From: Naegleria gruberi
Taxonomy: Eukaryota
DNA: 64,000 nt
NCBI GenBank assembly: GCA_000004985.1
Contig: GG738936.1
Strand: one strand, 5' to 3'
Under the pieces are notes generated by a model. That model had not been told where the DNA came from, did not search any database, and saw only the letters and a list, made by a program, of their open reading frames with translations. Shown piece after piece: positions 6,465 through 41,599 of the stretch. The stretch's first letter is position 1; each line of letters opens with the position of its first letter. Position numbers and translations under genes: made by a program.

Positions 6465-7077
6465 CTAGTAATAACGCCTTACTACAACATTATTCAATAC
6501 TACAATTAAAATTACAACAGCAATGTCCAACACCACGAAACATGCAAATAATCCTCCACCAATATTTCCAAACTATTAATATTAGCAAACACAAAGCCTA
6601 ACAATTACTTACTCTTCTTCCTCTATCACTGTAATTCATACGATTTCTAGTCATTGCAAAGAGAATAAGCCAAATAATTGGAAAGCAAAATCCGATCAGG
6701 AAGATTACAAAGGCCATATCATCATTCTTTTTCTTCAAATCAAAATTATCACCCAGTACAGGGTTAGAAACAAAGGTTGTTGTTCTAATAATTGATCATC
6801 TACATCAGAAAAAGTGTAACACTTACTGTTGAGTGGTTGTTTGTCCAGGATATTGTTGAACAACATAACCTCCATTTTGAGGTGGATAATAATTTTCACT
6901 TGATATTGGCATTGCAGTATTAGTCATTGGCATTTGAGGAGGTATTGGATATTGAGGTGTTGTTGTTGTATAATAAGGTGGAGGTTGATCATAATAATAA
7001 TTATACTTCTCCTCTCCAGCATATTTAGCTTGTTCTTGCAATGGTTGATGAAGAGGTACTTGCATTGAAGGATCCAT
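6465..7077 (-). CDS. Small membrane protein with a Pro/Tyr/Gln-rich N-terminus and two predicted TM helices (paralog A, 3 exons).
   Basis: Hand-spliced exons are 6827..7077, 6613..6784 and 6465..6572. The introns are 6785..6826 (42 nt) and 6573..6612 (40 nt), both starting GTAAGT. The spliced protein is about 176 aa: a PQY-rich N-terminus, then KKKNDDMAFVIFLIGFCFPIIWLILFAMTRNR (TM1), then FGNIGGGLFACFVVLDIAVVILIVVL (TM2). Confidence 0.5.
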
Positions 7078-17043: not shown

Positions 17044-18222
17044 TTACTGATTTGGTGTCGATTCACAAGTTGTAATACTTATTGTAATCTCACAACATGC
17101 AGGAGTTTTCTCAACATTATTTTTCTCATCCTCACTTTCTCTTCTGATGAAATAACTCATTAATATTCTATTTCTCAAATACGAAACTAAACACAACAAG
17201 AGAAACATAATTCCAATGACCAAATAAACAACTACAAGAAACAATAGAAATGTCCACCAAGGATTTCTATAATAATTAATAATACTATATGGAAATTTTG
17301 ATACCCATCTCGATTTCATACTAATTAAAAACCAAATATAGTATAAACTAGGAAAGCACATTAATGTGACAATGTGCCACTTTCTTATTTGAAAATTAGA
17401 CAAGAGAAAGTCAATTAAGCTTAATAATCCTGTAATACCATGATAAGAAACAGTACTTTCCCAAATTTGATGTCGAATAACTTATTAGAAACTAAATACT
17501 TACACACAATCTAAAACATCCTCCTGAACACTTGCTCTTCCAACCCAATATCCAATCGAAACAACCAATGAAGCAACCAAATTTAATTCGCCTACAAACC
17601 ACAACAATATTGAAATTCCTCTCCAGCCAATTTTGATCCACTTGTCAAATTTAGAATAATTCTTTAAAAGGAAATTTGTTTCATACGAAAACCTAATCGA
17701 GAAATTTCTAAAGAATACTAAGTAGACGAAACCTAAAAATGTCTGCAGTGAGAAATAAGTGGTGAAAACCATAATCATGTGGTGTGTGAAAAAAGTTGAG
17801 TTTTTCAGATAGATATTTTCGAATAGATCTGGTCTAAGAGATGGATAGATGGAAAGGGTGGTAACAATCCATGTAAAAGTCATTATTCGAAAGATGTATA
17901 AAGCTATGGTTAGATACTTGTTGTATCCGAAAGATTCGAATACAAATTGCGAAGGGTTTCGTAAACTAATTAATTAGCTTACCATTGTAATATCTACGTA
18001 CCCATCAAGAATTAAATCTGCTCTTTTAATTTCCTCCGTTTCTTGTTGATATTTAGCAACTCTGTTTTGTCTTTGTGTGAAAACTATTCCTTTCACAATG
18101 AAGAAACCTAACGAAAGTATGAAAATAAAGGAGAATGTCATGATACTTTGGATCAACAGCACAGAACTAATCAGATCAGCACCTTGTGTTTCAGAAAGTG
18201 AAGGTAAACTTCTTGCATCCAT
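17044..18222 (-). CDS. Predicted 7-TM membrane protein (3 exons); family unknown.
   Basis: Three minus-strand ORFs (17974..18222, 17500..17883, 17044..17403) are separated by gaps of about 90 and 96 nt with splice-like ends. Together they give about 7 hydrophobic helices. Exact splice sites were not resolved. Confidence 0.5.
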
Positions 18223-24703: not shown

Positions 24704-24907
24704 TGTTGGAATTTTCAGTAAAGCCTTACCAGGTTTTTTGAAGATGCACACAACGCAGCCTTCACAACTTGAAAAAAAAAGCCTTTATATTGTTGCTGAT
24801 AATTTTTGTTTCCATTGGCAGTGGCACAATGTAAGGCTGAAAAATATATTGAGGGGCGATTAAGTTTCTTTTTCGGAACACTTGATTACCTAGAAATTAA
24901 CAAAAAA

Positions 24908-27100
24908 ATGAGCAAAATTAAACCTGCAGACATGTTGGAGGCATCACTACAACAAATTAAAAATGTTGTTGGTGTTGGTTCATCATCGGAGAGTGTTGGA
25001 AAGATTGTGGTGAATGTTAGCAAGATTTTGGAGGAAAATTCTGCCTATTTGGGGATTACTACATTTTACGAGAGTAACAAGTTGACATCTTCGCAGTTTG
25101 GATCAAGTTGTAGGAATTTTCAGAAATGTTTGGATAGAGTGGAACATTTGGAATTGAGTGGAAATCAGTTGGAGTATTTTATTGTTAATGAAAAGTTGAC
25201 AAGTGACTCAAAGTATTTTGTTAGCCAATTTGCAAAGAGTTTGACATTCTTGGATTTATCTAATAACATGATCAAGAATTTTCCTATTGAATGTTTGAGT
25301 ATTCCATTAAAAATATTAAATTTGGAAAATAATTTAATTACGAGTTTGGAAAATCTAGTGAAAGAGTTGAATGAGAACAAATCGGAAATGAAATTGTTGA
25401 ATTGTCTTGAGAGTTTAAATATTTCCAAAAATTTAATTCAACATTTTCCATTCTACATAATTGTTAAAAAGTTCAAAAAGGTTGATAGTATTGACCTAGG
25501 TGAAAATCCATTACAATCTCTTTCTATTAACATGTTGAAGGAACAGAAAAAGGGAATATTTGGAAGTAACGCATCATCTTCTGATAAAAACGAAGACATC
25601 AAGATATTGACTGACTATTCAGATGCTTCTATTACAAGTGTAAAGATGAACTCTATTGACCTTGAAACTATTAGAAAGAGGCTCGAGTTGAAAACTCCAT
25701 TATTATCCAACAAAACCAATTCAATTTTTAATTTATTTAAAAAGAAAATATCAGATGATATTTCATTCGATAACAGCAAGGATTTCTTCCCTGTGGAGTT
25801 ATTTGATCTTCCAAATATACAACATCTAGACCTTTCCAAAAACAAACATTTAAATTATTCCAAGATGAAACAACTTGTACTCAGTCCATCCATAACATCA
25901 CTTAATCTGTCCAATTGTCAATTAGATGAATCTGTTTCTAGAATATTCAAATCAATTTTAAACAATTCTATCAGGAAGTTGATATTACACAACAATAATA
26001 TCAAGGAAATTTTAATAGAAGATTTTCCAAATATCATTTCAATTAATTTATCCAATAATATTGAATACTACAAAAAGGATGAGAATATTTATAACATACT
26101 ATCGAATGTTAATCCAAAAATTGAAGAATTAACATTGAAACGAGTTTTTAAGAACGAAGAAGGATACAAAGACCTATTAAATCTGAGTCTTATAAGAAAT
26201 AATCTAGAAGTGCCCAAAATTGGAATTTCCTTATCCAAGTTTTCCAGTATCAGATCTTTGACACTCAGTGGATTATTTCTTTCATCAATTCCTTTAGATA
26301 TTAACCAATCAAATATGCCTAACATTGAATTTTTGGATCTTTCAGAAAATGAAATTGGAGATTTTTCTAGTAATTTGTTAATGCTCACAGAATTGAAGTC
26401 GATAGACCTCTCATTCAATAATATTTCAACAATAGATGTAGATGATGAAATGTGCAACTTGACCAAGCTTACATCATTGGACCTTTCGCATAATAATCTC
26501 ACAGAATTTCCAATTGATCTAGTTCTATTATTACCCTCTATAGATATTCTTTCTCTTGAGTACAATACTAGTAATTTGAAAACAGCAAGAGAAGACAAGA
26601 ATGATATATTCAACCAATGGATGAAGGATCATAGTTCTGTGAAAATTAAACGAATGCTCATTGAACCAAGTTTAATTCTTGAGAGATTATATCTGGGAGG
26701 AAATGGTTCTGCCCAAAGTAAACACAATATGAAATTACTGGGCATTACTCACGTATTGAATGTTGCTGAGGGTTTAATAGCTCCATATCCTTTCGATTTC
26801 AAATATAAGAAAGTTGAACTTTCTGATACGTTAGGCGAGGATTTACTTCCGCACATAGATGCTTGTGTAAAATTTATAGAAGAGGCCATTGATTCACAAG
26901 GAACCATTCTTGTGCATTGCAAGGCAGGAGTAAGTCGTTCTGCCTCAATGGTAATTGCTTATGTAATGAAGAAATTCAAACTCTCTTTAGATGAAGCAAC
27001 TCAAATGGTAAAGGAGAAGCGTTCACAGATTTGTCCTAATGGAGCATTTGTAAAACAATTGGAAGATTATGGACGTTTATTGAATCGTGAATCACATTAG
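24908..27100 (+). CDS. mpl1: Leucine-rich-repeat protein with a C-terminal dual-specificity phosphatase domain (MPL1-like MAP kinase phosphatase with LRRs).
   Basis: There are many LxxLxLxxNxL repeats (LDLSNNMIKNFP, LNLENNLITSLE, LDLSHNNLTEFP and others). The C-terminal DUSP domain carries the active site VHCKAGVSRSASMVIAYVM (HCxxGxxRS). This architecture is known from Dictyostelium MPL1. The ATG at 24908 follows an upstream region without a good start. Confidence 0.75.
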   Translation: MSKIKPADMLEASLQQIKNVVGVGSSSESVGKIVVNVSKILEENSAYLGITTFYESNKLTSSQFGSSCRNFQKCLDRVEHLELSGNQLEYFIVNEKLTSDSKYFVSQFAKSLTFLDLSNNMIKNFPIECLSIPLKILNLENNLITSLENLVKELNENKSEMKLLNCLESLNISKNLIQHFPFYIIVKKFKKVDSIDLGENPLQSLSINMLKEQKKGIFGSNASSSDKNEDIKILTDYSDASITSVKMNSIDLETIRKRLELKTPLLSNKTNSIFNLFKKKISDDISFDNSKDFFPVELFDLPNIQHLDLSKNKHLNYSKMKQLVLSPSITSLNLSNCQLDESVSRIFKSILNNSIRKLILHNNNIKEILIEDFPNIISINLSNNIEYYKKDENIYNILSNVNPKIEELTLKRVFKNEEGYKDLLNLSLIRNNLEVPKIGISLSKFSSIRSLTLSGLFLSSIPLDINQSNMPNIEFLDLSENEIGDFSSNLLMLTELKSIDLSFNNISTIDVDDEMCNLTKLTSLDLSHNNLTEFPIDLVLLLPSIDILSLEYNTSNLKTAREDKNDIFNQWMKDHSSVKIKRMLIEPSLILERLYLGGNGSAQSKHNMKLLGITHVLNVAEGLIAPYPFDFKYKKVELSDTLGEDLLPHIDACVKFIEEAIDSQGTILVHCKAGVSRSASMVIAYVMKKFKLSLDEATQMVKEKRSQICPNGAFVKQLEDYGRLLNRESH

Positions 27101-27724
27101 TTGACATTTCTTTTTCTTTGAGAATAATTCCCTTTGGTGATGATAATACACAAGAGTTTTGGCAAAAACCTCGCTCAAGTCCTTTGTATTACCCTTCTCA
27201 ACATCAGCAATTACTGAGCTTTCCACATAGGTACAACAACCTGTAGAACGAGCCATCAATTCACCCTCACTGAAACTAATTGGTGCTGTAAATTGTTGAA
27301 ATTTCAATTCTTTGAGAATTTTTGTATTCTTTCTCAAATCAATCTTACATCCCATTAATATGATTGGAGTATCTGGTTTGTGAAATCTAATTTCTTTAAT
27401 CCACTTGTACTGAATATTTTCAAAACTACTTGTAGAAACTATACTAAAGCAAAGACAAAATAGATCAGTTTCTGGATAGCTCAGCGGTCTTAATTTATCA
27501 TAACTTGAATTGGAATAAGATATCAGATTGTGAATTCAATAAGTACTTACTCTTCCTGACCTGCAGTATCCCATAAATCAAACTTTGAAATCTCTTCCGA
27601 ATCACCATAGTATGAAATACAAGCAACATCACATGGACCATGTAAATATTCGGGTACATATCCCCAACCCAAATAATAAATTAATGAAGTTTTTCCAACA
27701 GCTCCATCACCATTAATTATCTTA
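27092..27724 (-). CDS. Rho-family small GTPase, with at least 2 exons visible and a C-terminal CAAX box (CQLM).
   Basis: The exon 27551..27724 (5' limit 27720 or 27724) encodes KIINGDGAVGKTSLIYYLGWGYVPEYL...DLWDTAGQE. A 47-nt GTAAGT intron (27504..27550) follows, and exon 27092..27503 encodes DYDKLRPLSYPETDLFCLCFSIVSTSSFENIQYKWIKEIRFHKPDTPIILMGCKIDL...KKKKCQLM. This exon has no in-frame ATG, so the start must be supplied from upstream (see finding). Confidence 0.7.
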
Positions 27725-27744
27725 CTGAAATCAGTAAATTCAAT

Positions 27745-28254
27745 TCATCGACTTACCACTTTTTTATTAATTGACTTTCCTTTTTTTTCCACATCAAATC
27801 CTCTTAAAGGTTGCAAATGTTGCTCCTTAATAGTCAATTTAATTTCTTTGAAATTCTGATAAAGTTCTTTCTCATCTTTTCCATAAGAACGAATATTGGC
27901 TATTTTAATTCTTTCCTTTTTACTTTGCTCAATTTCCTTCTGAAATTTTTCTTTTAATTCCAAAAATGATTTTCGATAATCCTTTTCCAGAGATAGATAC
28001 GGACCATACAATTGATCCATTCTATGTCTATTATGCGGACCATATATAACATAATATCGATATCTGGAAATTTCCGATTTCATACTCTGAATTTTACTTT
28101 TAACAAATTCCTTTTGAAATTCATCATGACTAATAATTAGCGAATTAAATGATGTGGAAATTAAACGAATGGTATCTTGCAGGAAATGACAATCTAAAAA
28201 ACTGAAAACCACTCCAAGCTCATCAGTATTTAAACGTTCCAACATTTTTTTCAA
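27745..28254 (-). CDS. F-box-like domain protein, either a stand-alone ORF or the N-terminal part of a fusion with the downstream Rho GTPase.
   Basis: A 169-aa ORF whose N-terminus LNTDELGVVFSFLDCHFLQDTIRLISTSFNSLI fits the F-box pattern (L..E.L..IFS.LD...L...RLVSK.F..LI). The rest is Lys/Glu-rich and helical. The stop overlaps a GTAAGT immediately 5' of the Rho exon. Confidence 0.45.
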   Translation of the reverse strand: MKKMLERLNTDELGVVFSFLDCHFLQDTIRLISTSFNSLIISHDEFQKEFVKSKIQSMKSEISRYRYYVIYGPHNRHRMDQLYGPYLSLEKDYRKSFLELKEKFQKEIEQSKKERIKIANIRSYGKDEKELYQNFKEIKLTIKEQHLQPLRGFDVEKKGKSINKKVVSR

Positions 28255-28296
28255 AGTTCACAGAGCAGATTACCTTTACAATTTAATTGTTGGTAT

Positions 28297-29154
28297 TTAT
28301 TCGAAATGAATGGTGGTACGTACTCCATAATGATCTGAAACTTCAATTCCATCCTCATTCTTCCATCTGATTATGTCGAATGAATGTTTGCAATTATTCG
28401 AAATAAAAACATGATCTAAACACCAATTATTAAATGTTGGAATTGGATAGGTCACTGGGTGTCTACTTGTATCATCGCCAAAAACATTTTTCAGCCCCAA
28501 TGAACTCATACTATTTTTCAAGTAGGCATAACTATCATTCGAATGCAATGAATCAATATTGTAATCTCCACAAATTACAACTCTAACATTTTCAAAATCA
28601 ATCTGGTAATGATTTCTGAAATTGTCAATCTTGTCATTCACAAATTGAACCAATTCCTTAATTTGTTCTCTCCTTGACCTATCCTTATGAGCATCCATAT
28701 GAACTGAAAATATCATCAAATAATCAGCATCACCTTCTTCATTCTTCTTCTTCTTAATAAGTGCATAGAGAATTCCCTTTGCAACAATATACTCTGTATA
28801 ACTTGCATATTGGAAAATGTAATTTTCACTCTCTAGAATTTCATGTCTCGTTAATAGAAGTAATCCAGAATCTTGCATAAATAATTTGGGAGGTTGAGAT
28901 TGAATGCACTGGTAGCCTAAATTATTTGCCTCACTGATCAAGAGTGTTTTAAGTTCGGAATTGAATGAAAATCCATTGAATAAACCAAATCCACCAAATT
29001 CAAACATTTCCTGAAGTGCAATCACATCTAAATCTTTTCCTTCATTTTGTAAATTTTCAATAAAACCAACAATTCGTTCCTTCTTGTGGGGTGGAACTCG
29101 TAGGGAGAGGGAAGTGAGCCACAGATTGTAACTGAGAAGATTCATATTTTTCAA
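28297..29154 (-). CDS. Endonuclease/exonuclease/phosphatase (EEP) family hydrolase, neutral sphingomyelinase- or nocturnin-like.
   Basis: EEP signatures are present: LSYNLW near the N-terminus, VVICGDYN in the middle, and the C-terminal SDHYGV motif (SDHxPV-type catalytic His). The ORF is 285 aa. Confidence 0.65.
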   Translation of the reverse strand: MKNMNLLSYNLWLTSLSLRVPPHKKERIVGFIENLQNEGKDLDVIALQEMFEFGGFGLFNGFSFNSELKTLLISEANNLGYQCIQSQPPKLFMQDSGLLLLTRHEILESENYIFQYASYTEYIVAKGILYALIKKKKNEEGDADYLMIFSVHMDAHKDRSRREQIKELVQFVNDKIDNFRNHYQIDFENVRVVICGDYNIDSLHSNDSYAYLKNSMSSLGLKNVFGDDTSRHPVTYPIPTFNNWCLDHVFISNNCKHSFDIIRWKNEDGIEVSDHYGVRTTIHFE

Positions 29155-29247
29155 TTTAATTGGATTTTTAAATTCTTGAAACTAAACTGGATTTGATATT
29201 TCAAATCTAGATTAAAATTGTAAAGTGTTGAAAATAGAAAAAAAACT

Positions 29248-30359
29248 TTAATCGAACAATGGAAGACTCCAGAAATTGATTGGATCACAAGTTCTAGTGA
29301 GATTGTTCTTTTCCAAACCTTCAAGAGATTCCATATCTTCACTTGACAATTCAAAATCAAAGATCTTGCTATTTTCAATAATTCTTTCTTCCTTAGTTGA
29401 CTTTGGAATAACAATACATCCTCTTTGAGTAGACCACTTCAACAAGATTTGAGCAGGAGTCTTTCCTAACTTTTCAGCCAAAGACTTGACAGTTTGATTG
29501 TTAACAGGTGAACTTTCATTAAAGTGACCAAGTGGAGAATAAGCAACCAAAGCAATATCACCAAGAGCTTGCTTCAATTTACGTTGATTAAGGTATGGGT
29601 GACATTCAACTTGATTAGCAGCTGGCTTAATTCTGGCATAAGTCAACAAATCATAAACAAGAGCAATTGGGAAATTTGAAATACCAATTGACTTGACCAA
29701 ACCATCATCAACAAGTTTTTCCATTTCTTCCCATGTTTCTCTGAGTGGAACAGCTTCCATAGCAATCTTTCCATTTTCATCCTTTGGGAAAACATTTTCA
29801 TCCTTCTTAATATCATCACCAACATATTTGAAATTGAAAGGCCAGTGAATCAAGTACATGTCCAAATAATCTAACTTTAAATCACTCAAGGTTTGAAGAC
29901 AAGCCTTTCTAACATGTTCCTTCTTGTGGAAAGTATTCCAAAGCTTGGAAACAACATAAACATCGGAACGATTAAACTTCTTTTCAGTATTAAAGAGTCT
30001 ATCAAAGGTTTCACCAATTTCCTGTTCGTTTCTATAGATGGCTGCACAATCAATATGACGATAGCCTTGTTCGAGAGCAAATTCAACAGCACGTGAAACT
30101 TCTCCTGGAGCAGATAACCAAGTACCTTTTTATCAATATATTATTTATGTAAATATGTATATATGTATTGTTGAATAGAATATTATATTAATAATTGATC
30201 ATTATCATCACAATAATATTAATCATCATCACACAATATATATTCATATTAAAATAATGAATTTAATAAATTAAAATCAAGCTTACCTAAACCAAAGATT
30301 GGCATCTTGGTACCATTATTCAAAGTGATGGATTGATCGAGTGGAGTAACTTGAGACAT
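29248..30359 (-). CDS. Aldo-keto reductase (aldose reductase-like, AKR1 type), 2 exons.
   Basis: Exon 1 is 30287..30359 (MSQVTPLDQSITLNNGTKMPIFGLG). A 160-nt intron (30127..30286, GTAAGC...AAAAG) follows. Exon 2 is 29248..30126 (TWLSAPGEV...IDCAAIYRNEQEIGE...LDYLDMYLIHWP...). The classic AKR N-terminus and active-site region are present. Confidence 0.8.
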
Positions 30360-34700: not shown

Positions 34701-35866
34701 TTATTCAATTTGTCAGAGTCAATGATTGTTATCAAGTGCTTGTTCTTTTCCACAAATTCTAAAGTATTTTGTCTTCCGTTCAAGAATGAGTCCATGTCTA
34801 CAATCTTTTCATCTTCGTTTTGTGCAGTTGGATTATTTTCAACCAGTAAAACTTTTGAATTATTTTTTCCAATTACAACTCTATCACAATATGTTTTCAA
34901 TTGATCAGATGAATCCAAATTCACAAAAATATTCTTTTTGGTGTTGGATGCAATTATAGACTCTAGAGATCCATCATTATCCTCTAATTTTCTCTTTTTC
35001 GATGAAGAATCTAATGAGTTCGAGCCTTCTGGATCTGAAGATTTCTTTGAATTATTTTCCTCAACGAATGGGTATGGAGCTAATTTCCAATCTCTGGCAC
35101 AATCATATAACCAATTCTTATCTACACGCTTAATTCCCCATTTGATCGATGTATCATATTTGGCACCAGCTGCAACTTTGTAAAGTAAATGAGTATTTTC
35201 CTGTGTCATATTACTGGAATATTTGCTTCCCATTGCTGCTATTAAATATTGCAATCTTGTTTTTTCTTTCTTTGGAAAACCAGATAAGGTAAAGTTCTGA
35301 AAAAGGAATGTAAAAAATATTAGTGCTATTGAATTATACTTACAAATCCTTCCATATCTGTAATTGGATAATCTTTCACGGGATAGTGGAGTGGATTTTG
35401 AATTTTCCTTCCAAATTTCTCAGTAATTACTAGAGGTTGAACACCATGAACAAGCATACAATCATCGAGCCAAAAACTAGTTACAATCGTTTTCTTTTCT
35501 TCGAGTGCCTTTGAAAATAAGCCACTAAACGTGTCACAATCTCAACTACTTACTCTATAGAAATTTTCTCCTCTCTGAACACTTGCCATCAAGTGTGTAA
35601 TATTACTCTTATACATGGTCACAACTTGTCCACCAAGTTTTTTGATAATTTCCCTGTAGAGTTCGGCCTCAGCTTCCTCATGTGTAAGTGGATCCACAAA
35701 GAATGTGCACCCTTCGAGAAATTCTGGCACATCTTCCATGTTTAGACCTGCAGCTGCGATTGGATTGGTAGTTCTGGTTTGTGGACGTTGTCTTCCTATC
35801 ATAATAATTAATGATCCAAGAAATAAGACCAACTTGCCAATGACATTAAAACAACTTACTTGACAT
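31760..35866 (-). CDS. Multidomain protein of about 1316 aa in 5 exons: two BRCT domains, a class II histone deacetylase domain and C-terminal parallel beta-helix (PbH1/CASH-like) repeats.
   Basis: Hand-spliced exons are 35860..35866 (ATGTCAA), 35554..35795, 35344..35508 and 31760..35296. The introns are 64, 45 and 47 nt, all with GTAAGT donors, and the phases are consistent. BRCT 1 reads FLEGCTFFVDP...ITHLMASVQRGENFYR...ALEEKKTIVTSFWLDDCM. BRCT 2 reads LSGFPKKEKTRLQYLIAAMGSKYS...WLYDCARDWKL. The HDAC domain carries RPPGHHAQ, IIDFDIHHGNGTQEIF and YVSIHRFE. The C-terminal third consists of repeated N.I..N...GI.. beta-helix units. Confidence 0.75.
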
Positions 35867-37653: not shown

Positions 37654-40566
37654 ATGTCATCATTACCAACATCCATTGTTGCCTCTTCTCATCATGGAAT
37701 AATTACTAATAGTAATCATTTGCAAGGCAAAAAAGCAACCACAAATTTATCTTGTTTAACTACAAGTCTATTGTTGGATAGAACCCACAATCATCACCAA
37801 CATGAAGAACAACAAATAATAATCGGAAGTAGTAGTACAGACAATGGTAGTGATGATAGGATATTAGAGAGTAATTGTAGTAATAATTATATAGTAGGAA
37901 AAGAAGAGGATGAAATTAAAGTGGAAACATCAACTTTAGATAATCATTGTTCTACAACAAAGGGAGAAAAAACACCAGTATCTCCTGCTAATGAAACAGA
38001 AGAACAGAATGTTGACAATACTCTCGAATCACTTTGTATTGAATACTTGATGAAGAATATCGAAAACTTTTCAAAGCCTCCTTCGAGTGTGGTCGATAAT
38101 AATTATTATGAATTTCTTGAAAAGGTTGAAGCTAAACTTGGCAATCAACAAGCACCACCACAAACTAATGGTTCTTCTGCAGCTTCCTATAAGCATTTAT
38201 TAAAACAAAGAGCAAGAAGTTCTTCAATTGGAAAAGTTGGTGGTGGAGGTGGAAATATTACAAATTATTTGCCAGCAACATTTGTGATGAGTCAACAAGC
38301 ATCGGAAGAGGTTTATCCATTTCCACAAGCTGTTTCTCAATTAATTGTGAATGGATTGTGTACCTCTAAACAAATTAGTCTTCCACTTTTAATCAAGTTG
38401 AGATATTCTGGGTTATCGAATTTGAATTTATCTTTGAATGGACGTGTTCATGATGATTGGATGATGTTATTGAGAGAAATACCTTTGGAAACTTTAAATT
38501 TATCACATTGTTTAATCACTAATCAAAGTTTATATTATGTGAAAGGAAAGAAACATATTATACCATGCCCAGAAAATGAGACGAATAATGAAAGGGGTTC
38601 TCCTACACTTCCTGAAGAGTCTGAATCTGAATCTGAAAGTGATTCTGAAGAAACACAAAAGAAGAGTGTTACTTTTTCTTTTGATTCAAATCCAAACAGA
38701 AAACCTCCTAAAAAGAAAAAGAAAAAGATAGTAGGGACTAGTTCTGTCTCCACGCCTCACAAGAGAGTACCTTCTGCTGATAGTAATGGTTCAGATAAGG
38801 ATAACGATAAGAAAAAGAAGAGTGGACCAAAGAGTACAACTTCTAGTGGTTCTGGTGGAAGTGGCTCATCTTCTAAAAAGAGAAAAGATGGTTCCATTCA
38901 AGTCACCACACCTTATACTCTTTCCCGAACACTCAAGTCATTGAATATGTCAAATATTCATGAAATTACGCATGATTCATTCAAGTTGATTCCTCAACTA
39001 TTCCCAAATCTTACAGCTTTGTCATTTGAGGGATGTAGTAACTTTACTAACAAATGCTTGGAACATATTTGCGGAAAAGTTCACAAATCTGAGGGAACCG
39101 TTCAAGAAAGTTCCAGTGTCAAACAATTGAGAAGAAACCTTAAAAAACTCAATTTGAAAAAGACGAAAATATCTGATGCTGGTGTCAGAAATTTACAAAG
39201 TCTAATCAACTTGGAATATTTAAATTTATCCGAGAATAAGCAATTGACGAACCATTGCCTAAAATTCTTGAAAGATTTAAAGTTTCTTTCATTCATAGCC
39301 ATTGATGGCAATGAAAGAATGACAGAGGATGGGTTGAGCTATTATCTCGGAGATGGAATAACCGGAATTTCAATTTCTGGAACATATATGGGTGATAACC
39401 CAGAACATTTTGCAAATTTTCCAAAGCTTAACTATTGGAATGCTTCAAATACCAATATTCACTCTCTGCAGAACAATGTTAAAAATTCATTTGCCTTCAA
39501 TAATCTCAGTGTGCTTAATCTATCTCACTGCAAGCTACTGGATGATAATTCTATGAAGAAATTTTTTGAAAGTTTGAATTGCCTATGCGAGGTGAATATT
39601 TCGAGCACTTTCCTTGATGATGAAGCTGTTAGTGGTCTATTGTCTTCAAAGAGTACTCTTAAAATTTTACATATCAACAACTGTGTACATATAACTGATC
39701 TTACCTTCGAGCATATTCTTCCATCCTTCAATATCATTACCGAGCTAGGTTTAAGGCAGATGAAGCACATCACTTATGCCAATGGATGGTGTCATTTATT
39801 CTCTGCTGACTTGCCAAAGGTAGAAAAACTATATTTGACTGCTAGTTTTATTAACCAAAGGTCTGATCAAGTGGAGCAAGAAGGATTTAAGGAAGCATTT
39901 GCAAATATTTGCAAAAATTTGAAAATATTGGATTTAAGTTGTAATTTGAAAGGAATAGATGATGAAAATATTTCAGAGGCTATCTCTGCAATGACCAATT
40001 TGGAGTGGATAGATTTTTCGCATTGTGATAGAATTTCCTCAAAAACTGTTGAAAATATTGCCAAACACTGTTTTAGACACTTGACTCACTTTGCTATTAG
40101 TTATTGCAAGAAGGTAGATGGAGCAAGTATTCCACTATTAAGGTCCTGCAAAAGCCTTGAAGTATTGTACCTATCAGGTATCAATATTCTTCCACAACAG
40201 TTTGCCAAACTTGCTACTTTGGAGAATATTTCTGACTTGAGTGTGATGGATTGTAAAAAGTTGGAGCAAAGGGATGGTTGTACCGAATTCTTGTACATAC
40301 TAAGCAACCAATGTAAATTCAAAAACAAATTACTCATGCTAAATTTGTATGGCCTTTACATTTATGAAGATTCTTTGGGATTTTTAGTTAGTTTGGATAA
40401 TTTAGTCACACTAAGATTGTCAACTCATGAAGAGCTTGAGGACCTGGGAGCTTTGTACGATCTACACAATCTGGTCTATTTGAAAACCAATGTTCTACAA
40501 TCCAAATCTCTTCAACAAGATTACAAAGCCTCCAAAGGATTCAACAGAGAAGTTTTCTCAATTTAA
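37654..40566 (+). CDS. Leucine-rich-repeat protein with cysteine-containing (RNI/AMN1-like) LRRs and an acidic/Ser-rich N-terminal half.
   Basis: A 970-aa ORF with a verified ATG. The middle is low-complexity (SESESESDSEE, poly-K, GSGGSGS). The C-terminal 500 aa are LRR_cc-type repeats (LNLSHCKLLDD, INNCVHITDLTFEHI, DFSHCDRISSKTVENIAKHC, ISYCKKVDGASIPLL). Confidence 0.6.
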   Translation: MSSLPTSIVASSHHGIITNSNHLQGKKATTNLSCLTTSLLLDRTHNHHQHEEQQIIIGSSSTDNGSDDRILESNCSNNYIVGKEEDEIKVETSTLDNHCSTTKGEKTPVSPANETEEQNVDNTLESLCIEYLMKNIENFSKPPSSVVDNNYYEFLEKVEAKLGNQQAPPQTNGSSAASYKHLLKQRARSSSIGKVGGGGGNITNYLPATFVMSQQASEEVYPFPQAVSQLIVNGLCTSKQISLPLLIKLRYSGLSNLNLSLNGRVHDDWMMLLREIPLETLNLSHCLITNQSLYYVKGKKHIIPCPENETNNERGSPTLPEESESESESDSEETQKKSVTFSFDSNPNRKPPKKKKKKIVGTSSVSTPHKRVPSADSNGSDKDNDKKKKSGPKSTTSSGSGGSGSSSKKRKDGSIQVTTPYTLSRTLKSLNMSNIHEITHDSFKLIPQLFPNLTALSFEGCSNFTNKCLEHICGKVHKSEGTVQESSSVKQLRRNLKKLNLKKTKISDAGVRNLQSLINLEYLNLSENKQLTNHCLKFLKDLKFLSFIAIDGNERMTEDGLSYYLGDGITGISISGTYMGDNPEHFANFPKLNYWNASNTNIHSLQNNVKNSFAFNNLSVLNLSHCKLLDDNSMKKFFESLNCLCEVNISSTFLDDEAVSGLLSSKSTLKILHINNCVHITDLTFEHILPSFNIITELGLRQMKHITYANGWCHLFSADLPKVEKLYLTASFINQRSDQVEQEGFKEAFANICKNLKILDLSCNLKGIDDENISEAISAMTNLEWIDFSHCDRISSKTVENIAKHCFRHLTHFAISYCKKVDGASIPLLRSCKSLEVLYLSGINILPQQFAKLATLENISDLSVMDCKKLEQRDGCTEFLYILSNQCKFKNKLLMLNLYGLYIYEDSLGFLVSLDNLVTLRLSTHEELEDLGALYDLHNLVYLKTNVLQSKSLQQDYKASKGFNREVFSI

Positions 40567-40630: not shown

Positions 40631-41599
40631 TTAATTGATGAACATCATAAAGACAATAAGAAGCAAGCTCCAAAACACATTCTCAACCCTCCACGTGGAT
40701 ACTGAACTAGATTGGAACTGATTAGTGATAAATGTTCCAAACCTCAACTCATCACCGAATAGAATTACTTTACATGTTGCACATGAAGATTTGTGATATC
40801 TAACCCAAACATAGAGGTCCAAAGCATCAGCAACAAATGCATGAGCTGTCTTATTAAGAATCATATTCCATGCGTCATCATAACCTGGAATGGATTTGAT
40901 TGTTGCCTTTGGTAGTTGTTGTTGAGCATAGCTTTGAAAGACTGAACCATCCGAAACTACAACTATTATATTTTCATTATTCAGATCAGTTACACTTTTG
41001 ATTGAGACGGTATCATTTTGAAGTTCGCTTCTTAAAACTCCGGAATAACTAACACCATTAGGACCTTAGAAACATTAGAATAGTTTGCAAAATATTCTAA
41101 ACTTACATTGAAAATGAACTTGGGAAGGTCTATCTCCACTGATGGCCGTAGCACTTAAAGAAACATCACAAATTCCAGTATCAACTGCATTCTTCATAAC
41201 ACTGAAATATCCTGCAGTAGTGTCAAGTGTCTTGAATACAGCAGTCAAGTTATCCAATTTATATTGCTGTTTAATTTCATTAACCAATAACTCCCCACTC
41301 TTTCGATAAATAGCTGGCCAAATATCAAATGCTTCATTATCATAACAAAGTGTTAAATAATTTCTTGACAATTCAAATTTTGATGGATACTGAGGGAGAC
41401 TTGTACAACCTGGAGTTTGTAAGTAAATTCCAAAAGAATCCAAAGTTTGTCTCCATTCTTTTGAGGCAATATATCTCGATGATGCTGCATCAATAACATC
41501 AACTAGATTTTTTGAGATTGTGAGAGAGTCCATAACTCTGACTAGAAAGATGATAATTGTTATCGTGATGATGAAGAGTGAGATTTCAAGTTGTTTCAT
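40631..41599 (-). CDS. Secreted protein with a bacterial-type extracellular solute-binding family-3 (PBPb/SBP_bac_3) domain (2 exons) and a C-terminal hydrophobic anchor.
   Basis: Exon 1 is about 41099..41599 and exon 2 is 40631..about 41056, with a 42-nt GTAAGT...CTAAG intron. The signal peptide is MKQLEISLFIITITIIIFLV. The domain aligns in pattern with HisJ/LAO-binding proteins (GICDVSLSATAISGDRPSQVHFQ against IDAIMSSLSITEKRQQEIAFT; AHAFVADALDLY against IDAAFQDEVAAS). The C-terminal VENVFWSLLLIVFMMFIN suggests a GPI anchor or TM. Confidence 0.55.

What the first reader, a model, noticed from the sequence alone, without database searches (positions are those of the whole stretch)
27092..28254. 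An F-box ORF ends inside a GTAAGT directly upstream of a start-less Rho GTPase exon, suggesting an F-box-Rho fusion or a micro-exon start.
The Rho GTPase exon beginning KIINGDGAVGKT has an in-frame TGA 39 nt upstream and no ATG, so its start codon must be spliced in. The preceding F-box-like ORF (27745..28254) terminates ...SINKKVV with its stop embedded in GTGGTAAGT. Splicing GTG|GTAAGT...TTTCAGTAAG|ATA (36 nt, phase 0) would give an F-box-Rho fusion of about 370 aa. Alternatively, a 38-nt micro-exon (ATGTGGAAAAAAAAGGAAAGTCAATTAATAAAAAAGTG, 27757..27794) inside the F-box ORF 3' end, spliced with a 32-nt intron in phase 2, gives MWKKKESQLIKKCKIINGDGAVGKT. Either way the structure is unusual. 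A bona fide 47-nt intron in the same gene (27504..27550) shows that very short introns are used here.
Basis: partly seen in the sequence, partly recalled or inferred. Interest (0 to 1): 0.6.

Follow-up and report, generated by a model that had tools for sequence, protein, structure and literature searches.

The report
Known Naegleria F-box-like–Rho fusion gene
The two reading frames are one Naegleria gruberi gene, joined by a 36-base intron, that encodes an F-box-like domain fused to a Rho GTPase; exactly this gene model was published in 2021, so the finding is right but not new.

Summary
The window is Naegleria gruberi NEG-M, not a dictyostelid: four window ORFs are exact RefSeq proteins. On the minus strand, a 163-codon N-terminal exon (28245..27757) is joined to the start-less Rho exon by a 36-nt phase-0 GTAAGT...AAG intron (27756..27721). 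A 47-nt intron follows at 27550..27504. The product is 356 aa and ends in the CAAX box CQLM. It is residue-for-residue identical to the "newly created" Rac model ACER01000821.1** in Table S8 of Herman et al. 2021.

Independent support:
- Three paralogues carry a 45- or 47-nt intron at the same codon boundary.
- N. lovaniensis and Willaertia homologues encode both domains in one uninterrupted exon.
- A second strain shows 6 synonymous and 1 conservative difference.

That strain's SNP at 27723 puts a TAG stop into the micro-exon model and makes the 36-nt intron's acceptor TAG, so the micro-exon reading is refuted.

The F-box label holds only at family-profile level (FBXO3 E=1e-4; hhalign 91.6%). 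Pfam finds none in this protein. The same paper already describes F-box+GTPase fusions in Naegleria. Function is untested. Interest is low.

The parts
27757..28245 (-). Coding exon 1 (489 nt, 163 codons): ATG at 28245 and the N-terminal helical domain, ending ...SINKKV.
   Evidence: ORF, model. All five differences from strain L001 are synonymous (P=2e-4 under neutrality). Homologous N-domains occur in paralogues and in the N. lovaniensis and Willaertia proteins.
28102..28236 (-). Divergent F-box-like core (residues 4-48: RLNTDELGVVFSFLDCHFLQDTIRLISTSFNSLIISHDEFQKEFV).
   Evidence: The family profile A3 has one significant PDB match, FBXO3 F-box residues 10-56, E=9.9e-5. hhalign against a three-sequence F-box alignment gives 91.6% probability, E=8e-7, query residues 4-48. 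Pfam F-box is below threshold in two relatives (16.4 and 17.4 bits against a 20.5 cut-off) and absent for this protein.
27721..27756 (-). Intron 1: 36 nt, phase 0, GTAAGTCGATGAATTGAATTTACTGATTTCAGTAAG. It contains the in-frame TGA (27747..27745).
   Evidence: It is removed in the published model. Paralogues have an intron at the same codon boundary: 45 nt in L004, 47 nt in L005 and 47 nt in L006. The sequence between the conserved flanks is not conserved.
27730..27734 (-). CTGAT branch-point-like motif. Its A (27731) lies 10 nt from the 36-nt acceptor but only 6 nt from the upstream CAG (27727..27725).
   Evidence: CTGAT or CTAAT lies 10-29 nt upstream of the acceptor in nearly all candidate short introns of the window. 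Its role as a branch point is inferred, not shown.
27723..27723 (-). Strain polymorphism (A in the window, T in L001) in the last four bases of intron 1: TAAG becomes TTAG.
   Evidence: It creates an in-frame TAG in the Rho frame and in the micro-exon model. It leaves the 36-nt-intron product unchanged and turns the acceptor into TAG.
27551..27720 (-). Coding exon 2 (170 nt): Rho G-domain N-terminal part, IINGDGAVGKT...DTAGQE + GA of the split Asp codon.
   Evidence: Pfam Ras PF00071, 100.7 bits. Aligned to Rac proteins.
27504..27550 (-). Intron 2: 47 nt, phase 2, GTAAGT...TTCAAG, within the DTAGQE-D|YD motif.
   Evidence: N. lovaniensis (49 nt) and Willaertia (46 nt) have an intron at the same motif. 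It is identical in strain L001.
27092..27503 (-). Coding exon 3 (409 nt plus the TGA stop at 27092..27094): the rest of the Rho domain, including the Rho insert region, a polybasic KKKK stretch and the CAAX box CQLM (27095..27106).
   Evidence: The published model ends identically.

Best explanation
Gene structure (well supported). Positions 28245..27092 on the minus strand are a single three-exon Naegleria gruberi gene.
- A 36-nt phase-0 GT-AG intron (27756..27721) removes the TGA that separates the upstream ORF from the start-less Rho exon.
- A 47-nt intron (27550..27504) follows.
- The mRNA encodes a 356-aa protein. It has a divergent F-box-like motif (about residues 4-48), a helical linker of about 110 residues, and a Rac-like Rho GTPase domain. 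It ends in a polybasic stretch and the CAAX box CQLM.
- The distal AG (AAG, or TAG in another strain) is used rather than the CAG 4 nt upstream. This is probably because the CAG lies only 6 nt from the CTGAT branch-like motif (inferred).

Function (inferred, not shown). The protein is probably prenylated and membrane-anchored. The F-box-like motif would couple the GTPase domain to Skp1/cullin ubiquitin-ligase machinery. The Rho domain would then act either as a nucleotide-dependent substrate or partner-binding module of an SCF-type ligase, or as a GTPase whose own turnover is SCF-controlled. The authors who catalogued these fusions proposed this general idea as 'GTPase-dependent ubiquitination'. 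The P-loop (GDGAVGKT) and the DTAGQ glutamine are intact. The switch I threonine is replaced by glycine, so the GTPase cycle is probably atypical.
For: - Organism: four window ORFs are exact N. gruberi RefSeq proteins.
- Frame and splice arithmetic.
- Published model: the spliced product is identical over 356 aa plus the stop to the manually created model ACER01000821.1** in Table S8 of PMC8296547 (legend).
- Paralogues: a full-length, gap-free junction alignment to XP_002673500 (P0002; KKI|IFNGDG against KKV|IINGDG).
- Paralogue DNA: GTAAGT or GTATGT ...AG introns of 45, 47 and 47 nt lie at the identical codon boundary. The paralogue on L005 has the same tandem acceptor, TTTCAGTCAG|ATA, and there too only the distal AG keeps the frame.
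- Other genera: N. lovaniensis and Willaertia homologues encode the N-domain and Rho domain in one continuous exon.
- Second strain (98.7% identical): 5 of 5 synonymous differences in the N-domain, and 1 synonymous plus V185I in the Rho domain. P=3e-4 for 6 or more of 7 being synonymous under neutrality.
- SNP at 27723: compatible only with the 36-nt intron.
- Window introns: they cluster at 42-48 nt, with GTAAGT donors, frequent AAG acceptors, and CTRAT 10-29 nt upstream of the acceptor.
- F-box: FBXO3 E=9.9e-5; hhalign 91.6%.
- Rho domain: Pfam Ras 100.7 bits, motifs.
Against: - I could not access any transcript data, so splicing at 27757|27720 is inferred from comparative evidence. The published model is also a manual prediction.
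- At 36 nt, the intron is shorter than any other candidate intron in the window (42 nt or more), and a CAG lies 4 nt upstream of the acceptor used.
- Pfam does not detect an F-box in this protein. The canonical Leu-Pro of F-boxes is Leu-Asn here. Table S8 lists no additional domain for this entry.
- AlphaFold models of the N-domain are low-confidence (pLDDT below 50), so no structural confirmation was possible.
- Skp1 binding, prenylation and GTP binding are all untested.
Confidence: 0.9

Rival explanations
1. Micro-exon start. The Rho gene is independent and starts at ATG 27794 in another frame, inside the 3' end of the upstream ORF. A 38-nt first exon is spliced through a 32-nt GTAAGT...CAG intron in phase 2, giving a 207-aa Rho that begins MWKKKESQLIKKCKIING.
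For: The arithmetic works in the window sequence. CAG is generally a better acceptor than AAG. A real 10-nt micro-exon exists in a paralogue, so tiny exons do occur in this lineage.
Against: - In the second strain the first full codon after the splice is TAG, giving MWKKKESQLIKKC*, while the rest of the gene is under purifying selection.
- No homologue has this N-terminus.
- The model would leave a conserved, selected 163-codon ORF unexplained and overlapping the Rho gene.
- The CAG lies only 6 nt from the branch-like CTGAT, closer than in any other candidate intron.
- The published curated model does not use it.
Confidence: 0.02
2. Two separate units, or a decaying gene. The upstream ORF is a stand-alone 166-aa protein ending at TGA 27745 with no splicing, and the Rho exons are a start-less pseudogene or use an unidentified distant 5' exon.
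For: The official N. gruberi annotation had no model here, since the published one is flagged 'newly created'. Prokaryote-style gene callers report the 166-aa ORF alone. There is no transcript evidence.
Against: - The same two-part arrangement, with an intron at the same codon, occurs in four paralogues.
- It is a single exon in N. lovaniensis and Willaertia.
- Both halves show synonymous-biased divergence between strains.
- The Rho part keeps its P-loop, DTAGQ, the Rho insert and the CAAX box.
- Table S8 does not flag the entry as a pseudogene.
Confidence: 0.04
3. The fusion is real, but the N-terminal domain is not a functional F-box. It would be a lineage-specific helical or coiled-coil extension, for example for oligomerisation or localisation, that only resembles an F-box by composition.
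For: - There is no Pfam F-box hit for this protein, and only sub-threshold hits in two of seven relatives.
- The Leu-Pro dipeptide is missing.
- The authors of Table S8, who used SMART, Pfam and CDD, list no F-box for this entry or for its paralogue XP_002673500.
- The whole-domain profile finds only 4 proteins among 1.84 billion.
- The AlphaFold models are low-confidence.
Against: - The only significant PDB match of the family profile is an F-box, aligned exactly to the FBXO3 F-box at E=9.9e-5, and the next hits are at E>1.
- Profile-profile comparison gives 91.6% probability over 42 columns.
- The motif sits at the extreme N-terminus, as in the other Naegleria F-box-GTPases.
Confidence: 0.3

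Closest known systems
N. gruberi 'Rac' gene model ACER01000821.1** (Herman et al. 2021, BMC Biol 19:142, PMC8296547, Additional file 10, Table S8)
   Same: The protein sequence is identical (356 aa plus stop), which implies the same ATG, the same 36-nt intron and the same 47-nt intron.
   Different: Nothing differs in the sequence. The table leaves 'Additional domain(s)' blank, whereas family-profile comparisons here indicate a divergent F-box-like N-terminus.
Naegleria F-box+GTPase fusion proteins (F-box with Rab, Rho, Ran or G-alpha domains; PMC8296547, Supplementary Material 4), e.g. Rac XP_002682912.1* labelled 'F-box'
   Same: An N-terminal F-box-type motif lies upstream of a Ras-superfamily GTPase domain, and some members have a C-terminal CAAX box. 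The architecture is lineage-specific to Naegleria and relatives.
   Different: In this subfamily the F-box is too divergent for Pfam, SMART or CDD. It lacks the Leu-Pro and is followed by a helical linker of about 110 residues. The subfamily (window gene, XP_002673500, P0003, the L006 gene) also shares a conserved intron exactly at the domain junction.
RhoBTB atypical Rho GTPases (metazoa, Dictyostelium, also reported in Naegleria)
   Same: A Rho-type GTPase domain is fused to a cullin-RING-ligase adaptor module, and the GTPase is atypical. The concept is a Rho domain wired to ubiquitination. This rests on established knowledge of RhoBTB as Cul3 adaptors and on the mention.
   Different: The adaptor here is F-box-like (Cul1/Skp1 type), not BTB (Cul3 type). 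It is N-terminal rather than C-terminal. This protein keeps a CAAX box and is much smaller. It is not a member of the RhoBTB family.
Canonical Rac/Rho small GTPases (e.g. Willaertia Rac P0023)
   Same: 40-45% identity over the G domain. Shared features are the GDGAVGKT P-loop, DTAGQEDYD, the Rho insert and the CAAX box.
   Different: There is a 163-residue N-terminal extension. Switch I is degenerate (EYLHGPCDVAC against EYVPTVFDNYC), with the conserved Thr replaced by Gly.

Membership tests
Rho family of Ras-superfamily small GTPases | Ras-type G domain detected above the curated threshold | tested here: met
   Pfam PF00071 Ras, 100.7 bits (cut-off 21.6), E=8e-29.
Rho family of Ras-superfamily small GTPases | P-loop GxxxxGK[ST] and the DxxGQ motif with the catalytic Gln | tested here: met
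   GDGAVGKT and DTAGQED are present after splicing.
Rho family of Ras-superfamily small GTPases | Rho-specific insert between the G4 motif and the following helix; best hits are Rac/Rho proteins | tested here: met
   KIDLRKNTKILKELKFQQFTAPIS aligns with the Rac insert region. All top database hits are Rac/Rho proteins.
Rho family of Ras-superfamily small GTPases | Conserved switch I threonine (Thr35 of Rac1), needed for the canonical GTP-dependent switch | tested here: not met
   It aligns as Gly (EYLHGPCDVAC against EYVPTVFDNYC). The protein is therefore an atypical Rho.
Rho family of Ras-superfamily small GTPases | C-terminal CAAX prenylation motif | tested here: met
   KKKKCQLM-stop. Prenylation itself was not tested.
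F-box proteins (SCF substrate receptors) | F-box domain detected by the curated Pfam model above the gathering score | tested here: not met
   No hit for the window protein at E<=10. Relatives P0002 and P0012 score 16.4 and 17.4 bits against a 20.5 cut-off.
F-box proteins (SCF substrate receptors) | Profile-level homology to an F-box of known structure | tested here: met
   Family profile against PDB: the only significant hit is FBXO3 residues 10-56, E=9.9e-5. hhalign against FBXO3 plus two Naegleria F-boxes: 91.6% probability, E=8e-7.
F-box proteins (SCF substrate receptors) | Conserved Leu-Pro at the start of helix 1 | tested here: not met
   Leu-Asn in the window protein and its paralogues, Leu-Phe in Willaertia.
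F-box proteins (SCF substrate receptors) | Three-helix F-box fold | tested here: inconclusive
   The AlphaFold2 models are helical, but pLDDT is below 50 across the N-domain, so no fold search was attempted.
F-box proteins (SCF substrate receptors) | Binding to Skp1 | not testable with these tools
   Needs a pull-down, two-hybrid or co-structure experiment.
Spliceosomal GT-AG intron (27756..27721) | Consensus donor, terminal AG, frame restored, conserved flanks and non-conserved interior | tested here: met
   GTAAGT...AAG, 36 nt, phase 0. The same position is used in three paralogues with lengths of 45, 47 and 47 nt and unrelated interiors. The intron is absent from the N. lovaniensis and Willaertia homologues.
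Spliceosomal GT-AG intron (27756..27721) | Spliced transcript observed | not testable with these tools
   No N. gruberi transcript data were reachable.

The most novel reading that the evidence does not exclude
The 4-nt-spaced tandem acceptor acts as a splicing switch. It reads CAG|TAAG in the window, CAG|TTAG in the second strain and CAG|TCAG in one paralogue. Use of the proximal CAG (or intron retention) gives an immediate stop and a stand-alone F-box-like protein of about 164-166 aa. Use of the distal AG gives the full F-box-like-Rho protein. The cell could then tune the ratio of an adaptor-only 'decoy' to the membrane-anchored GTPase fusion.
Probability: 0.06. Interest if true: 0.45.

Novelty: already known. 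Interest (0 to 1): 0.2.

Why it matters
The finding itself matters little, because the exact gene model and the general F-box+GTPase architecture in Naegleria are already published (PMC8296547, supplements).

What this analysis adds is modest:
- Independent comparative evidence for a model that was a manual prediction and is missing from RefSeq. This comes from a junction intron shared by four paralogues, intron-less junctions in two other genera, and strain polymorphism.
- An indication that this particular Rac subfamily, listed without any extra domain, has a cryptic, divergent F-box.
- Evidence that the RefSeq models of two paralogues are mis-spliced.

F-box-Rho proteins remain functionally uncharacterised. 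They could be an SCF-linked counterpart of RhoBTB, but that question is not opened by this window.

Tried and rejected
- Pfam on the upstream ORF and on the N-termini of relatives gave no hit or only sub-threshold F-box hits.
- Exact look-up of the fusion and micro-exon proteins: neither is in the 15-billion-protein collection. Only the unspliced 166-aa ORF is, from a metagenome.
- The look-up of encoding contigs for N. gruberi proteins P0002 and P0127 found nothing on record. I could therefore not read the reference paralogue loci or the official annotation around 27-28 kb, and used contigs from a metagenome strain instead (L001, L004, L005, L006).
- Models of the paralogue P0002 and of the unspliced N-domain ORF have pLDDT of about 52 overall and below 50 in the N-domain. 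I did not run fold search, since the matches would be meaningless.
- Three literature searches found no dedicated study of F-box-Rho proteins. The relevant statement sits only in the supplement of PMC8296547.
- I first treated P0002 as the orthologue from a different species. Searches showed that the window is N. gruberi itself and that P0002 and P0003 are paralogues.
- The 32-nt CAG acceptor read from the N-domain frame gives an immediate TAA, so I rejected it as the productive splice.
Full report
**What is in the sequence.** The feature lies on the minus strand.
- An ORF runs from 28254 (TTG; the first ATG is at 28245) to a TGA at 27747..27745.
- A Rho-type exon reading K-I-I-N-G-D-G-A-V-G-K-T follows and has no ATG.
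- The ORF therefore ends ...KKVVSR*, 6 nt past GTAAGT, and not inside GTGGTAAGT.
- The TGA begins 24 nt upstream of the K codon, not 39 nt.
- Removing 27756..27721 (36 nt, GTAAGT...TAAG) is phase 0 and gives ...SINKKV|IINGDGAVGKT.
- Removing 32 nt (to the CAG) from the same frame gives an immediate TAA.
- The 47-nt intron 27550..27504 restores DTAGQE-D|YDKLRPLSYP.
- The protein ends KKKKCQLM, a CAAX box.
- Pfam assigns the C-terminal part to Ras (100.7 bits) and finds no F-box in the upstream ORF.

**Organism.** Four long ORFs of the window are exact matches to Naegleria gruberi RefSeq proteins on one 79.9-kb scaffold (XP_002668915.1, XP_002668938.1, XP_002668923.1 and XP_002668916.1).

**Is the fusion real? 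Homologues.**
- With the 356-aa fusion model as query, the best hit is N. gruberi 'rho family GTPase' P0002 (354 aa, 62% identity, 100% coverage).
- N. lovaniensis P0012 (358 aa) and Willaertia magna P0069 (321 aa) also align over the full length.
- The alignment is gap-free across the junction: HKKI-IFNGDGSVGKT against NKKV-IINGDGAVGKT.
- These proteins are themselves predictions, so I examined genomic DNA.
- In N. lovaniensis (L002) and Willaertia (L003), the N-terminal domain and the Rho domain lie in one uninterrupted exon. The only intron (49 and 46 nt) sits in the DTAGQx|DY motif, the same site as the window's 47-nt intron. The two-domain architecture therefore does not depend on any splice prediction.

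**Is the fusion real? Paralogues and the intron position.** Three contigs from one metagenome (ERZ929261) carry an N. gruberi-like strain's copies of the paralogues.
- L004 is the P0002 type. It reads aaaaagatt|GTAAGTTGTG...TCACGCAG|atatttaatggtgatgga. This is a 45-nt phase-0 intron at the same codon boundary, and it happens to be open in frame, so a prokaryotic gene caller read through it (P0122).
- L005 is the P0003 type. It has a 47-nt intron ending TTTCAGTCAG|ATA, and only the distal AG keeps the frame, giving KKI|IFTGDGSIGKT.
- L006 is a fourth, more divergent member (P0131). It has a 47-nt GTATGT...AAAAAG intron giving LKL|IINGDGGAGKT.
- Taken together, four paralogues have an intron at the identical position. 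The lengths are 36, 45, 47 and 47 nt, the flanks are conserved and the interiors are unrelated. This is the signature of a real intron.

**Strain evidence.** Contig L001 is 98.7% identical to window 25878..30115.
- Across the spliced CDS there are seven differences. Five are in the N-domain and all are synonymous. Two are in the Rho domain: one synonymous and one V185I.
- With 19% synonymous sites, six or more of seven being synonymous has P=3e-4 under neutrality. Both halves are therefore under purifying selection.
- The eighth difference is at 27723 and changes TTTCAGTAAG|ATA to TTTCAGTTAG|ATA.
- It creates an in-frame TAG directly before the ATA codon of the Rho frame, and a stop in the micro-exon model (MWKKKESQLIKKC*).
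- It leaves the 36-nt-intron product unchanged and improves the acceptor from AAG to TAG.
- This refutes the micro-exon reading and fixes the exon start at 27720.

**Is a 36-nt intron plausible here?** I ran a mechanical survey for GTAAGT-type donors that connect long open frames.
- It finds candidate introns of 42, 42, 45, 47, 47 and 48 nt, plus a few of 91-146 nt, often with AAG acceptors.
- Nearly all carry CTGAT or CTAAT 10-29 nt before the acceptor.
- In intron 1 the CTGAT A is 10 nt from the AAG, equal to the intron at 41106..41065. It is only 6 nt from the CAG. This suggests a steric reason for skipping the CAG, but that is an inference.
- These candidates were not individually verified.
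- The N. fowleri genomics paper used a 30-bp minimum intron length for read mapping.

**Comparison with the literature.** Herman et al. 2021 (PMC8296547) re-annotated all Ras-superfamily genes of N. gruberi.
- Table S8 contains a 'Rac' entry, ACER01000821.1**. The double asterisk means a newly created gene model (legend).
- Its sequence is identical to my 36-nt-intron model over all 356 residues and the stop.
- Its pseudogene and additional-domain columns are blank.
[quoted passage not shown] It proposes GTPase-dependent ubiquitination.
- Both the gene model and the architecture class are therefore already known.

**Is the N-terminus an F-box?**
- Pfam finds nothing for the window protein. It gives sub-threshold hits for two relatives: 16.4 and 17.4 bits against a 20.5 cut-off.
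- A seven-member family profile of the first ~66 positions has exactly one significant match among 177,635 PDB sequences. It is the F-box of FBXO3 (residues 10-56, E=9.9e-5), and the next hits are at E>1.
- hhalign against a small alignment of FBXO3 plus two N. gruberi GTPase F-boxes quoted from Table S8 gives 91.6% probability, E=8e-7, over 42 columns.
- The canonical Leu-Pro is Leu-Asn here.
- AlphaFold2 models of the N-domain are helical but low-confidence, so no fold search was justified.
- The whole N-domain profile finds only four proteins among 1.84 billion representatives. The domain as a whole is lineage-restricted.
- My reading is a divergent F-box-like motif followed by a novel helical linker. 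I put the probability that it is a functional Skp1-binding F-box at about 0.7.

**Mechanism.**
- Shown: the gene structure, the domain order, and the presence of the motifs.
- Inferred: farnesylation or geranylgeranylation at CQLM, supported by the polybasic stretch, leading to membrane anchoring.
- Inferred: the F-box-like motif recruits Skp1 and cullin, so that the Rho domain acts as the substrate or partner-binding module of an SCF-type ligase, or is itself regulated by it.
- The P-loop and the catalytic Gln are intact, but the switch I Thr is replaced by Gly. Nucleotide binding is therefore likely, while the canonical switch is doubtful.
- The nearest functional analogy is RhoBTB (Rho plus a Cul3 adaptor). 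This protein is not a member of that family.

**Verdict.** The gene model was published in 2021. Interest is low.

Noticed in passing
window 27092..27100: The Rho gene's CDS (minus strand, stop TGA 27092..27094) and the convergent LRR + dual-specificity-phosphatase gene's CDS (plus strand, ORF 24806..27100, stop TAG 27098..27100) overlap tail-to-tail by 9 nt. Their 3' UTRs must therefore be fully antisense to each other.
   Followed up: partly
window 28246..28296: Only 51 nt separate the stop of the upstream same-strand Exo_endo_phos ORF (28297..29154) from the ATG at 28245. Any promoter and 5' UTR must be tiny or must overlap the neighbouring gene.
   Followed up: no
window ~28743 (L001 insertion): The second strain (L001) carries an in-frame 18-nt insertion in the Lys/Glu-rich stretch of the Exo_endo_phos ORF. 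It is the only indel in 4.2 kb.
   Followed up: no
L006 1258..1267: The fourth paralogue appears to have a real 10-nt micro-exon (GGCAGGAAGA) between 42-nt and 48-nt GTAAGT introns inside the DTAGQED motif. The spliced model is a complete 362-aa protein ending CELM.
   Followed up: partly
P0002 (XP_002673500.1) and P0003, N. gruberi RefSeq models; L004, L005: The RefSeq paralogue models are flawed. P0002 lacks 'DYD' after DTAGQE because intron 2 is mis-spliced, which is corrected in Table S8. P0003 lacks the N-terminal 80 residues and the whole P-loop exon, whereas the strain contig L005 shows an intact gene.
   Followed up: partly
window introns 6826..6785, 17503..17456, 27550..27504, 35343..35297, 41106..41065 and others: The candidate short introns share GTAAGT donors and a CTGAT or CTAAT motif 10-29 nt upstream of the acceptor, and AAG acceptors are frequent. 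This looks like a tight branch-point consensus for N. gruberi. The candidates were not verified individually.
   Followed up: partly
L001, L004, L005, L006 (ENA ERZ929261 / ERR1078381, PRJEB11402): All four metagenome contigs carrying family members come from one sample. That sample evidently contains an N. gruberi-like strain about 98.7% identical to NEG-M, which makes it a ready source of polymorphism data for checking gene models.
   Followed up: no
window 37654..40566: An unrelated annotated 'leucine rich repeat protein with F-box domain' (XP_002668915.1) lies 10 kb away on the plus strand.
   Followed up: no
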